NCBI GenBank assembly: GCA_951406725.2
Contig: OX597816.1
Span: 4,092,001 to 4,156,000, forward strand
Direction: 5' to 3'
DNA: 64,000 bases
DNA from: Octopus vulgaris
Lineage: Eukaryota
The translations under genes were made by a program, and so were the position numbers. The notes beneath the pieces are model-generated. The model did no database searches. It worked only from the letters and a program-made list of their open reading frames with translations, and was not told the DNA's origin. This document shows, one piece after another, positions 8,368 through 52,925 of the stretch; within the stretch, counting starts at the first letter, position 1, and the number at the start of each line of letters is the position of its first letter.

Positions 8368-8468
8368 CTACTACCCCGAGTTACACGTTCCTGTTCGTCG
8401 GTAGAAAGATGGTAGTAAACAATCAAAACTATCGGACGAATGGGAACGTGAAACTCTGAGTATCAGTT
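8368..8468. ncRNA. Degenerate inverted pair of hammerhead motifs (family of 14114-14207)
   Basis: Plus strand: actat CGGACGA atg-ggaa-cgt GAAA ctc-t-gag TA tcagt; decayed mirror copy at 8368-8404. Confidence 0.6.
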
Positions 8469-8509
8469 TTTTGTGATGTTTTTGTAGCTATAATAATAAA
8501 GTATATATA

Positions 8510-14011: not shown

Positions 14012-14240
14012 GGAGTAAACACATAAATGTGAAACAAGGTGGAGAAAAGAGAACTCAAATACCAGAGGTAGAGTAATATGCTTTATATAAAAGCAGTAGA
14101 AATATAACAAAAGCTGTTACTCAGAGTTTCAAGTTCCCGTTCGTCGGACAGTTCTGCTAAAAAAAAAAACTGTCCGACGAACGGGAACGTGAAACTCTGA
14201 GTAACAGCTCTTGTTATATTTCTGCTGCTTTTAAATAAAG
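14010..14240. mobile_element. Fold-back element with one hammerhead motif on each strand, between (TA)n tracts
   Basis: Arms ~14081-14153 and 14168-14240; further copies at 8368-8490 and 52695-52822. Confidence 0.8.
14170..14207 (+). ncRNA. Minimal hammerhead motif with variant core CCGACGA (mirror copy 14114-14151, minus strand)
   Basis: ctgt CCGACGA acg-ggaa-cgt GAAA ctc-t-gag TA acag; all three stems pair. Confidence 0.75.
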
Positions 14241-14244
14241 TATA

Positions 14245-14275
<31 letters not shown>

Positions 14276-37500: not shown

Positions 37501-38366
37501 ACATATATCAAATATAATGGCAGCCCAGTTTTTGATAGCATAAATAAGAAATGTCGAACTAATAGATGATCTACTCTATTAGATTTTCATTTAAGATTGG
37601 CCTAAAATTTAACTGTAAATTGACTTTCCTGAGGTTGCTTTATATGCCAAAATGTCAATGAAGAAATTAGGTAAATTTGGCAGATTACTGCGTCATGACT
37701 GACGGACATACCTCGGAACATTTTCAAAAATTGGCAGCGGTCTTGTATTGAATGTCCACTAGTCGCAACGCAGTACTTTATCAATATTAGACTAATTTTA
37801 TGATATCGTTTATAAGATCGAACGATTACCGATCAAGCCAGGGCAATCCGAGTAAGAGATAAATCAAAGTCTATATATTTGATGAAATATGGGTCTAGAC
37901 TTCTCAATTTGTGTCAATGCCCTACTAATTTTGACAAATTGTACACAGACTCATATACACACATCAAGCTAAGCTGTACATACGTTAATCCTTGTCTTCT
38001 TTTTGTTTTCAGGGTATCAAGCGGGTATGTATTACTGTAAGAATTTCAACAATTAACCCAGTTTTTCTTATATCGATACCCAGCGAGGTGAACCTGACAA
38101 GTGAAATACAGTATCGATAATTTGACTTTTGTAAACGTTGCAGAAAGGGGAAATTAATAAAGAAAAAAACGTTAGTAGTGCTTTTGACACCGCAATCAAA
38201 TACTTTTGGTAAAGAATTAATTAGCACAAATCTCAAATCAGGAAATTTTACTTCTGTGACGGGATATGAATTGATGATATTATAATTGATTCCTCGTTTA
38301 TTCGCTAATTGAAAATCGAATCCTCAATTCTCATTTCTCATTCAGTTAGTGCTGTTTCTCTGCCTA

Positions 38367-39146
38367 AACCTAACCTTGACAGTCTAATATTGTTTTACAT
38401 AATTTAACCTAACCTTGACAGTCTAATATTGTTTTACATAATTTAACCTAACCTTGACAGTCTAATATTGTTTTACATAATTTAACCTAACCTTGACAGT
38501 CTAATATTGTTTTACATAATTTAACCTAACCTTGACAGTCTAATATTGTTTTACATAATTTAACCTAACCTTGACAGTCTAATATTGTTTTACATAATTT
38601 AACCTAACCTTGACAGTCTAATATTGTTTTACATAATTTAACCTAACCTTGACAGTCTAATATTGTTTTACATAATTTAACCTAACCTTGACAGTCTAAT
38701 ATTGTTTTACATAATTTAACCTAACCTTGACAGTCTAATATTGTTTTACATAACTTAACCTAACCTTGACAGTCTAATATTGTTTTACATAATTTAACCT
38801 AACCTTGACAGTCTAATATTGTTTTACATAATTTAACCTAACCTTGACAGTCTAATATTGTTTTACATAATTAAACCTAACCTTGACAGTCTAATATTGT
38901 TTTACATAATTTAACCTAACCTTGACAGTCTAATATTGTTTTACATAATTAAACCTAACCTTGACAGTCTAATATTGTTTTACATAATTTAACCTAACCT
39001 TGACAGTCTAATATTGTTTTACATAATTTAACCTAACCTTGACAGTCTAATATTGTTTTACATAATTTAACCTAACCTTGACAGTCTAATATTGTTTTAC
39101 ATAATTTAACCTAACCTTGACAGTCTAATATTGTTTTACATAATTT
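38367..39146. repeat. Tandem array, 20 x 39 bp (aacctaaccttgacagtctaatattgttttacataattt)
   Basis: 780 bp / 39 = 20 units; only about three single-base variants. Confidence 0.95.
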
Positions 39147-39743
39147 CACGTATTTTTACTCTCTTAAAAAAAAAATAGAATTAAATAAATAAAAAAGAAC
39201 AAACAAAAATAAAATGCTTCCAATAATCCAGAAGACTTTTAGACACCAACACCATTCCATTCTTGGTAACAGTTACACATATTTAATTTAATGGATGAAG
39301 ATGCGATATCATTCTCCGGATCAAAATGGAAACCTGAAGATGTAATGGAATGATGGCTCCCGTAAAATATCATTCATTTAAATTTTCTATATCAAGCCAT
39401 CTGCAAAAGCGTTCCGTTTTGTGAGCCAATCATAAATTAAATCTGCGTATTTTTCTAAATGTCCACGATAATACACATATATGAATAGATGTTTTCTGCT
39501 GAAAACGGAATGAATGCAATCCCTCAAAGACCGAAAGTTACATGGAAAAAGGTAACTTTGTGAATGGATGTGCTTAAGTGTTTTGGATTGTATGACATGC
39601 GTTTAAATATAAATGTATCGTTTATGAGTGTATTTACGTTTAATATTGTGTGTCAGCCATGGTTATGAGTGTCAGGAATGGTCTTGTGAAGTCATGTTCT
39701 CACTATTTTAGCTTTTCATTGCCAAAAGTCAGACATTTACTTG

Positions 39744-45547: not shown

Positions 45548-45580
<33 letters not shown>

Positions 45581-45795
45581 AACTTAGATAAACTTAGATA
45601 TGTTTCGACCAAAGATTGGTCCAGGTCATGTCTAACTTAATAGCACCACCTGATAGGATTATTTGAATCCTGTTTAAGTCAAGTTTTGTTTATGGTCCAT
45701 TCAAGTAGTGAGTTTTTGTTGGGTGAGTTGTATCCAAATATGGGTGGCTTATCTGGTATTCCTTGAAGGAATCGATCCAGACTCCGTTTAAAGTT
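45581..45795 (-). mobile_element. CR1-group LINE 3' end (same family as 48000-48540)
   Basis: Near-identical to 48010-48215; short repeated tail (tatctaagtt). Confidence 0.8.
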
Positions 45796-45851
45796 TATAT
45801 AATATTTATATTATTATGTGATTGAACGCGACGCATCCTTTTACAGGTAAG

Positions 45852-47950: not shown

Positions 47951-47994
<44 letters not shown>

Positions 47995-47999
47995 ACTTA

Positions 48000-48540
48000 T
48001 AAGTAAACTTAAATAAACTTAGATGTGTTTCGACCAAAGATTGGTCCAGGTCATGTCTAACTTAATAGCACCAGATAGGATTATTCGAATCCTGTTTAAG
48101 TCAAGTTTTGTTTATGGTCCATTCAAGTAGTGAGTTTTTGTTGGGTGAGTTGTATCCAATTATGGGTGGCTTATCTGGTATTCTTTGAAGGAATCTATCC
48201 AGACTCCATTTAAAGTTGATGGGATCCTTTTCCACTTTGATCTCTTTCGGGACAATGTTAAATAGGGCAGGGCCTGTTGAGGAAAAGAAATTATATTGCA
48301 GTGTACATGTATGCTGTGATCTTGAATTTGGCAGGGGACGTATGGCTCGTGGTCCCAGTCTTGGATGAACCTTGAAGCTAATGTTCAGGTCGTTTGGGCA
48401 AAGTTGGCGGTATATTCTCCACATTGTACAAATGATGTACCGCTCACGGCGATGCTGGAGAGAGTAAAGTTTCAAGGCTTTAGGGCGATCCCAATAATCG
48501 AGAGCAGCCATGCCTTCAATTCGTTTAGTGAGTGCCCTAA
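48000..48540 (-). mobile_element. 5'-truncated CR1-group LINE ORF2 C-terminus and 3' UTR
   Basis: RALTKRIEGMAALDYWDRPKALKLYSLQHRRERY..LFNIVPKEI..FKWSLDRFLQRIPDKP. Confidence 0.85.
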
Positions 48541-48826
48541 AGCCAATATGCTGATAACAGACTATTAAATCGTCAATTTCCACATATAATCTACTCACTA
48601 CAAAAATCGAAGAACTTAAGTCCGGCAAGTTGGCCGTTAGAATCTTTAAAATTCGTTATCTCTATATTGAATCAATTTCGGAATTAATCTCATAAAAGAA
48701 TTATTCCTCTTCAGTAGAGTTTACGAGAGAATATAAATAAGATACTTACATGCACCCATGGAAAAAACGAGTAGATCATATGTGGAAATTGACGATTTAA
48801 TAGTCTGTTATCAGCATATTGGCTTT
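48540..48826. mobile_element. Element with ~57-bp terminal inverted arms enclosing a hammerhead
   Basis: agccaatatgctgataacagactattaaatcgtcaatttccacatat and its reverse complement at ~48768-48825. Confidence 0.8.
48660..48719 (-). ncRNA. Type I hammerhead ribozyme, perfect core, extended stem II
   Basis: ctcta CTGAAGA ggaataattcttttatgagattaattcc GAAA ttga-t-tcaa TA tagag. Confidence 0.88.
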
Positions 48827-48955
48827 GAAATAATATTCTTTAGCTCTTACTTATAAGCTGTTTATAATTTTAACCGTAAAGGTATTTTAATATGCTGCCA
48901 CATTTCTTGACGGAATTTTTTTCTGGAGAGAAAAAAACTTCATCCTATATTAGTA

Positions 48956-49099
<144 letters not shown>

Positions 49100-52694: not shown

Positions 52695-52822
52695 GAACGT
52701 GAAACTCCGAGTAACAGGTTTTGTTGAATTTCTGGTGCTTTTAAATAAAGCATATTACTCTACCCCTGGTATTTGAGTACTCTTTTTTCCACCTTGTTTC
52801 ACATTTATGTGTTTACTCCGGT
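52695..52822 (+). mobile_element. Truncated copy of the 14010-14240 family (3' half of HHR plus tail)
   Basis: acgt GAAA ctccgag TA acag, then the reverse complement of 14010-14097. Confidence 0.8.
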
Positions 52823-52925
52823 GTACATATATATATATATACATATATGCATCGTGAATACATACATAGATACATAGATACATATATATATATATATATT
52901 ATAATAATATAATATATATATAAAA

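What the first reader, a model, noticed from the sequence alone, without database searches (positions are those of the whole stretch)
48540..48826. Second perfect-core hammerhead between 57-bp inverted arms, abutting a LINE truncation point
Seen on the minus strand at 48660-48719: ctcta CTGAAGA [ggaat-aat-t-ctt ttat gag-att-a-attcc] GAAA ttga-t-tcaa TA tagag, with all stems pairing and an AUA site. The enclosing arms look like MITE TIRs, but the ribozyme argues for a PLE-type inverted pLTR (inference). The left arm begins where the CR1-group LINE fragment is 5'-truncated, which explains the chimeric ORF 48101-48628.
Basis: partly seen in the sequence, partly recalled or inferred. Interest (0 to 1): 0.7.

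Follow-up and report, generated by a model that had tools for sequence, protein, structure and literature searches.

The report
Penelope-dependent hammerhead repeat, LINE inserted later
This stretch is one of hundreds of copies of a 510-base non-coding repeat with a predicted self-cutting RNA (hammerhead); its copies end at two fixed points beside AT repeats and often lie as mirror-image pairs, so it likely borrows the enzymes of Penelope-type jumping genes, and the neighbouring LINE most likely jumped into its end later.

Summary
The hammerhead (minus strand 48660-48719) and the 58-bp arms are real, but the arms are not terminal inverted repeats. They are the overlap of two head-to-head pieces (48539-48767 antisense, 48768-48957 sense) of an ORF-less ~510-nt unit with at least 322 intact-core copies in this genome. 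In 88 position-ordered loci, 97 of 120 outer 3' ends fall at two fixed sites (A, B; ~95 nt apart), mostly next to (AT)n; 5' ends are scattered. Inverted loci carry one A and one B end (15 of 16 classifiable; 22 of 24 in a second sample). An autonomous Neptune-type Penelope-like element (PLE) in the same genome shows this tail-on-one-end pattern (4 of 4). Best reading: a non-LTR retrozyme, i.e. a non-autonomous PLE; the partner enzyme was not identified. The LINE is not part of it: a 14-nt remnant of end A lies beyond the LINE's 3' tail, so the LINE most likely inserted later; the 'chimeric ORF' starts at TTG and is incidental. Cleavage and circular RNA are untested, and Rfam did not hit the motif. 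The scan noted this general layout once before in another genome.

The parts
47957..47992 (.). (AT)n target microsatellite on the left (end A side), continuing leftwards into (ATGT)n
   Evidence: sequence
47993..48006 (-). 14-nt remnant of the element's 3' end A, cut off from the left arm by the LINE
   Evidence: matches the family's end A exactly over 14 nt; not seen in 14 other LINE tails
48007..48538 (-). 5'-truncated LINE (RT-ORF C-terminus, 3' UTR, short tandem tail); secondary insertion, about 20 bp of the element lost at the site
   Evidence: 97% to family copies; longer copies carry RVT_1, E 8.5e-32; the CR1-group label is recalled from motifs, not tested by a tree
48539..48767 (-). 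antisense (left) piece of the 510-nt unit, unit positions about 410 through the cleavage site to 131
   Evidence: 96% to nearest copies
48660..48719 (-). type I hammerhead motif, intact core, predicted cut between 48665 and 48664; near-palindromic stem III, predicted to be active as a dimer
48768..48957 (+). sense (right) piece of the unit, positions 73-262, passing site A and ending at 3' end B; the A-to-B stretch (about 48865-48957) is the PLE-type 'tail'
48539..48596 (.). left 58-bp 'arm': overlap of the two pieces, not a TIR (partner 48769-48826)
   Evidence: junction positions vary among copies
48939..48951 (+). 13-nt motif just before end B that also occurs 29 nt behind the 3' end of a young autonomous PLE family of this genome
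   Evidence: noticed post hoc
48958..49000 (.). (AT)n target microsatellite on the right (end B side), followed by (GT)n
   Evidence: sequence

Best explanation
The stretch is a head-to-head insertion of an ORF-less, ~510-nt hammerhead-bearing repeat (a non-LTR retrozyme) that is likely copied into (AT)n microsatellites by the reverse transcriptase and GIY-YIG endonuclease of a Neptune-type Penelope-like element, and a LINE most likely inserted into its left end afterwards. Shown: closed 510-nt unit, rare tandem copies, two fixed 3' ends at (AT)n, scattered 5' ends, inverted copies with one end of each kind, same end pattern in an autonomous PLE of this genome. Inferred: tandem master copies are transcribed; two hammerheads pair through their palindromic stem III and cut out monomers, which may circularise; a PLE protein (predicted by Frangieh et al. 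to be a dimer that cuts and extends both strands) breaks (AT)n and primes one cDNA from each DNA end, one at internal site B and one at site A; the two 5'-truncated cDNAs join head to head. The window copy has a single hammerhead and is probably a dead-end daughter copy.
For: Copy number: 1899 and 2846 first-look candidates, 40 scored each; 322 exact intact-core matches against 0 in the control. Unit: periods 509 and 510 in a 2.5-mer; two same-strand cores in 5 of 88 loci, four at 478-512 nt and one at 264. Ends: 97 of 120 outer 3' ends at A (49) or B (48), 90 of those 97 next to (AT)n; of 32 inverted loci 16 had both ends at A or B: 15 A+B, 1 A+A, 0 B+B, binomial p 2e-4 against the 28:23 ratio of single copies. 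B-anchored second sample: 22 of 24 adjoining inverted arms end at A, 1 near A (a place already in the first sample), 1 at B (counted by eye from the output). Comparator: 20 of 20 copies of a GIY-YIG PLE end in (AT)n, with or without a ~32-nt tail, and 4 of 4 inverted ones have the tail at one end only. Literature: tail at one of the inverted pLTRs and head-to-head junctions (PMC3846280, passages), two internal RT start sites bounding the tail and cutting of both strands (PMC11167929, parts 1-2 of 4), retrozymes as PLE derivatives (10.64898/2026.07.22.740005, parts 1-3 of 5). RNA structure: stem I outer pair U-A in 26 and C-G in 22 of 53 rows; U-A to C-G double changes in the hairpin before site B in 7 and 8 of 52 rows; 5 of 5 monomers fold as circles better than shuffles, z -3.1 to -9.0, 15 shuffles each; the two-strand double hammerhead (-25.7 kcal/mol) is within 0.6 of the cofold minimum, whereas the monomer fold has probability 0.0007. 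Most long copies read through the cleavage site, so the template was uncut, multimeric or circular RNA. LINE order.
Against: No partner found: no extended DNA similarity to the 3' ends of three PLE families examined; a fourth family was seen only around its RT. The shared 13-mer was noticed post hoc (null 1 of 2000 shuffles for that place, 87 of 2000 anywhere in the PLE unit), and none of 19 loci of that PLE family ended at it or was inverted. Rfam does not recognise the motif. Covariation in the hammerhead rests on one pair, probably one event; the basal stem II pair is broken in 10 of 53 rows and another in 23 of 53; mean column identity is 93%, so core conservation in young copies is weak evidence, and the 322-copy count demanded the core. 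16 of 32 inverted loci had at least one end elsewhere. The tail (~95 nt) is longer than the 30-40 nt described for PLEs and the unit longer than the 170-400 nt of described invertebrate retrozymes. Only 1 of 9 predicted frog retrozyme dimers cleaved in vitro in the 2026 preprint. The LINE-order argument rests on a 14-nt AT-rich remnant that shares a few letters with the LINE's own tail.
Confidence: 0.8

Rival explanations
1. The copies are 5'-truncated stumps (pLTR plus inverted pLTR) of an autonomous PLE that was not in my sample; the 510-nt tandem form would be a side product.
For: End anatomy is identical to that of autonomous PLEs here and in print; truncated PLEs are common; only about 90 of 322 intact-core sites were examined, 28 of them with just 1.5 kb of flank.
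Against: Every long copy continues upstream into the previous unit, not into an ORF (56 segments run from before site B to the next hammerhead); tblastn hit PLE-like sequence in 5 of 88 loci, none joined to the unit as its terminal repeat; 52 5' flanks share nothing except one duplicated locus and one 54-nt match; subfamilies about 75% identical keep the same closed unit.
Confidence: 0.11
2. The element is mobilised by, or fused during reverse transcription to, the neighbouring LINE (template-switch chimera), giving a chimeric ORF.
For: The LINE 5' end abuts the left arm in the same orientation; the LINE also ends mostly in (AT)n; similar divergence (97% and 96%).
Against: End A remnant lies beyond the LINE's 3' tail; 0 of 14 LINE loci hold the unit and 1 of 179 family locus records has this LINE, not at a junction; no shared 3' tail; frame starts at TTG.
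Confidence: 0.04
3. A MITE or other DNA transposon with 57-bp TIRs that happens to enclose a hammerhead-like motif.
For: Near-perfect 58-bp inverted arms in an AT-rich target; a TA duplication cannot be excluded inside (AT)n.
Against: 56 of 88 loci have no inverted arm; arm lengths run from 32 to 783 nt; the two outer ends differ (A versus B) instead of mirroring each other; tandem units exist.
Confidence: 0.01
4. A satellite-like unit spread by DNA-level processes (fold-back repair, break capture at microsatellites) with no RNA step; the hammerhead is a relic.
For: Palindromic junctions in 8 of 21 short inverted inserts could arise by DNA fold-back; no RNA evidence was obtained.
Against: Fixed 3' and random 5' ends are the polarity of reverse transcription; compensatory pairs and the kept core fit selection on RNA; extra AGT triplets at end B in several copies look like primer slippage.
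Confidence: 0.04

Closest known systems
Metazoan non-LTR retrozymes (Cervera and de la Pena 2020, PMC7229834; read parts 2-3 of 6 and passages; Li et al. 2026 preprint 10.64898/2026.07.22.740005, parts 1-3 of 5)
   Same: ORF-less unit of a few hundred nt, low GC (0.32-0.34), one type I hammerhead per unit, tandem dimers and many monomers, predicted highly paired circle, co-occurring PLEs.
   Different: Unit ~510 nt (170-400 nt in the 2020 paper; 51-972 in the preprint); no long arrays in my sample (at most 2.5 units); about a third of loci are head-to-head inversions; (AT)n targeting and two fixed ends were not described in the parts I read; RNA not shown here.
EN+ Penelope-like elements with inverted pLTR and tail (Arkhipova et al. 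2013, PMC3846280, passages; Craig et al. 2021, PMC8557442, passages; Frangieh et al. 2024, PMC11167929, parts 1-2 of 4)
   Same: 5' truncation, partial tandems, inverted 5'-truncated copy, tail on one end, AT-rich or microsatellite targets, palindromic junctions, hammerhead upstream of the 3' end.
   Different: No ORF; tail about 95 nt rather than 30-40; hammerhead has a full core and a 4-bp palindromic stem III rather than the minimal form seen in the two autonomous families here.
PLE hammerheads with palindromic helix III that work as dimers (Cervera and de la Pena 2014, PMC4209133; parts 1-2 of 4)
   Same: Short helix I, long helix II, palindromic helix III, predicted dimer activity; opposite-strand pairs 100-700 bp apart were noted there.
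   Different: Longer helix III (11-nt near-palindrome), AUA site, N7 = A in most copies.

Membership tests
type I hammerhead ribozyme | conserved core CUGANGA, GAAA, UH with three helices, helix I open | tested here: met
   CUGANGA in 48 of 60 copies with a 5' half by regex count; N7 is the core position that varies by subfamily
type I hammerhead ribozyme | match to curated Rfam hammerhead models | tested here: not met
   no hammerhead family at E up to 10
type I hammerhead ribozyme | covariation supporting the helices | tested here: inconclusive
   93% of cells paired, one pair with double change (22 of 53 rows); basal stem II pair broken in 10 of 53
type I hammerhead ribozyme | self-cleavage | not testable with these tools
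   folding predicts a misfolded monomer and a viable dimer
non-LTR retrozyme | non-coding tandem unit with a type I hammerhead in consecutive units | tested here: met
   L078 periods 509/510; 4 of 88 loci with two cores about one unit apart; no long ORF in six frames
non-LTR retrozyme | low GC, highly self-paired predicted circle | tested here: met
   GC 0.32-0.34, 63-66% paired, z -3.1 to -9.0 in 5 of 5 monomers
non-LTR retrozyme | expressed as linear and circular monomer RNA | not testable with these tools
   needs northern blot or divergent RT-PCR
non-autonomous Penelope-like element | PLE insertion anatomy: 5' truncation, inverted copy, tail on one end, AT-rich target | tested here: met
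   same in an autonomous family
non-autonomous Penelope-like element | sequence homology to the pLTR of an autonomous partner | tested here: inconclusive
   no extended homology to three families; one shared 13-mer in the tail position; other PLE families not examined
autonomous PLE | RT plus GIY-YIG ORF between pLTRs | tested here: not met
   none joined to the unit in 88 loci; no hit in the window
MITE | fixed symmetric TIRs and uniform length | tested here: not met
MITE | target-site duplication | tested here: inconclusive
   both flanks are (AT)n, so a TA duplication cannot be read

The most novel reading that the evidence does not exclude
This family is a circular-RNA retrozyme that hijacks a Neptune-type PLE enzyme by mimicking its tail signal, and its footprints reveal a rule of PLE integration: each two-ended event uses both internal RT start sites, one per DNA end (37 of 40 classifiable inverted loci here, 4 of 4 in the autonomous family), as expected from an asymmetric RT-endonuclease dimer. 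It would give a short, testable trans-substrate for the open question of how PLEs make inverted ends and tails.
Probability: 0.35. Interest if true: 0.6.

Novelty: new member of a known kind. Interest (0 to 1): 0.38.

Why it matters
That animal retrozymes are moved by Penelope-like elements has been argued from co-occurrence and pLTR similarity. Here the insertion footprints themselves (two fixed 3' ends, (AT)n targets, tail on exactly one end of inverted copies) match an autonomous PLE of the same genome, which is independent support of a different kind. The near-strict one-short-one-long rule constrains models of PLE integration. For annotation, such inserts mimic MITEs and will be mislabelled. 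The class, the inverted ends and the tail are already in print, so the finding is a good example rather than a new system.

Tried and rejected
Rfam scans: no hammerhead match; other hits were microsatellite or hairpin noise. Pfam on 7 window frames: nothing credible, including the 'chimeric' frame. Partner hunt: four PLE-like families found beside other loci were pulled; no extended homology to the unit; the family was seen only around its RT. The shared 13-mer as an end site of the young PLE family: 0 of 19 loci end there, and the 20 motif-plus-(AT)n places printed all belonged to the unit. Expression: no RNA holder listed; contigs of four runs guessed to be RNA cover most of the unit but cannot show strand, level, cleavage or circles, so this was not used as evidence. 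Simple fold-back from a B-primed first strand as the only cause of inversion: rejected, because the A arm reaches further 5' in 29 of 49 loci and the B arm in 19 (2 of 51 loci dropped as unassignable); palindromic junctions occur in 8 of 21 B-anchored loci (2.6 expected, p about 0.001) but in 0 of 28 loci selected for a hammerhead. A pile-up of 5' ends at the cleavage site: not seen (5 of 123 in the first 50 nt; that sample was selected for an intact hammerhead). Earlier scan notes by sequence: nothing. Literature searches for this family in cephalopods and for twin priming in PLEs listed no paper describing it; Repbase/Dfam and supplements were not seen, and the repeat libraries of PMC13282606 and PMC8557442 may already hold it.

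Full report
Observation. The minus strand at 48719-48660 holds a type I hammerhead layout with an intact core and an AUA site. It is the only hit of a strict descriptor in the window and one of four hits of a relaxed one. Stem II has one U-U mismatch in this copy and stem III is a 4-bp stem inside an 11-nt near-palindrome. Rfam did not recognise it. The arms are 48539-48596 and 48769-48826, 57 of 58 bases complementary, and the left arm starts at the LINE's truncation point.

What the arms are. A search of the window's own genome (2.8 Gb; probably an octopus, inferred from repeat make-up and not tested) gave 1899 candidates, 40 scored. Mapping 50 distinct places onto a real tandem copy showed a unit of 509-510 nt. 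The window holds two pieces of it head to head: an antisense piece 48539-48767 (unit positions about 410 through the cut site to 131) and a sense piece 48768-48957 (73-262) ending at (AT)n. The 58-bp arms are their overlap. An exact pattern for the intact hammerhead found 322 sites, against 0 for the reversed control, in at least three subfamilies about 75-95% alike.

End anatomy. I took 88 of these places in genome order from the first 100 rows listed. 56 were single-orientation and 32 inverted. Of 120 outer 3' ends, 49 were at site A (unit 158-180), 48 at site B (250-275) and 23 elsewhere; 90 of the 97 A/B ends abut (AT)n; 5' ends were spread over the unit. Single copies used A and B about equally (28:23). 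Among the 16 inverted loci with both ends at A or B, 15 had one of each (p 2e-4); the other 16 had at least one end elsewhere. In a second sample of 58 places anchored on end B (5 gave no mapping), 24 had an adjoining inverted arm: 22 ended at A, 1 near A, 1 at B. Either arm can be the longer (29 versus 19 of 49), and 8 of 21 short inserts have palindromic junctions.

Comparison with autonomous elements. A GIY-YIG element found beside a LINE locus has a 781-aa open frame with a CxxxxCxxC motif before the nuclease, the Neptune/Nematis mark given in PMC8557442 (passages). All 20 copies fetched end in (AT)n, 16 directly and 4 after a ~32-nt tail, and all 4 inverted loci have the tail at one end only. 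This is the anatomy described in PMC3846280 (passages), and PMC11167929 (parts 1-2 of 4) ties the tail to two internal RT start sites with cutting and extension of both strands. The unit has no extended DNA homology to this family or two others. A 13-mer just before end B recurs 29 nt behind the 3' end of a very young 4470-bp PLE family (1 of 2000 shuffles for that place, post hoc), but none of 19 loci of that family ended there.

Non-autonomy. Two same-strand cores about one unit apart were seen in 4 of 88 loci, which meets the retrozyme criterion of the 2026 preprint (parts 1-3 of 5 read).

RNA structure. In 53 distinct hammerhead rows 93% of cells pair, and the outer stem I pair is U-A in 26 and C-G in 22, but this is the only double change and the basal stem II pair is broken in 10. 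The hairpin before site B has U-A to C-G changes in one subfamily. Five monomers fold as circles with z -3.1 to -9.0. The window's hammerhead is predicted to misfold alone (probability 0.0007) and to form a double hammerhead with a second copy at near-minimum energy, in line with PMC4209133 (parts 1-2 of 4). No cleavage or RNA evidence was obtained.

The LINE. It is a young family (97-98% among copies; RVT_1 in longer copies; the CR1-group label is recalled). Behind its 3' tail in the window lie 14 nt that match the element's end A, then (AT)n. Joining that remnant to the left arm gives the usual A+B insertion, with about 20 bp lost. So the LINE most likely inserted into the finished element. 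It is not a regular companion: 0 of 14 LINE loci hold the unit and 1 of 179 family locus records has this LINE, about 200 nt away. The chimeric frame starts at TTG and has its first ATG inside the LINE.

Mechanism. Shown: closed unit, polarity of ends, target, one-of-each rule, same rule in an autonomous PLE. Inferred: transcription from rare tandem masters, dimer cleavage and possible circularisation, trans-mobilisation by a Neptune-type RT-endonuclease that primes one cDNA from each end of a break in (AT)n at sites B and A, and head-to-head joining of the two truncated cDNAs. Fold-back may contribute to the palindromic junctions but cannot be the sole route.

Novelty. The class (non-LTR retrozyme, non-autonomous PLE), the inverted ends and the one-sided tail are in print; an earlier AI note of this scan (e1-8829949) read similar fold-back elements in another genome as PLE stumps. 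My searches listed no description of this family or of the quantified A+B rule for a retrozyme, but repeat databases and supplements were not seen. Verdict: new member of a known kind, interest 0.38.

Noticed in passing
   Followed up: partly
window 14076-14245 (core at 14174, plus strand); related pieces at 8372-8509 and 52695-52848: A 170-bp near-palindromic element with a variant hammerhead (CCGACGA core) ending in (AT)n; 900 first-look candidates, many matching over the full 171 nt in both orientations. Fixed length makes it look MITE-like, unlike the element studied.
   Followed up: partly
L196-L215 (for example L196:1730-6967): Young Neptune-type PLE with many 781-aa open frames, a degenerate minimal hammerhead about 70 nt before the 3' end, a 32-nt tail with a palindrome, and about 1.3 kb of further coding-like sequence before a stop upstream of the 781-aa frame.
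   Followed up: partly
L252-L271: Very young PLE family, 100% identical over 311 nt in at least 35 places, in head-to-tail arrays of about 4470 bp, (AT)n at both ends, no inversions in 19 loci.
   Followed up: partly
L090, L100, L105, L116, L175 (end B): Extra AGT triplets added at end B before the (AT)n, suggesting slippage or reiterative copying at priming.
   Followed up: no
window 45571-45798: A second short 3' fragment of the same LINE family, 98% identical.
   Followed up: no
window 38364-39170: 39-bp minisatellite of about 20 near-identical copies.
   Followed up: no
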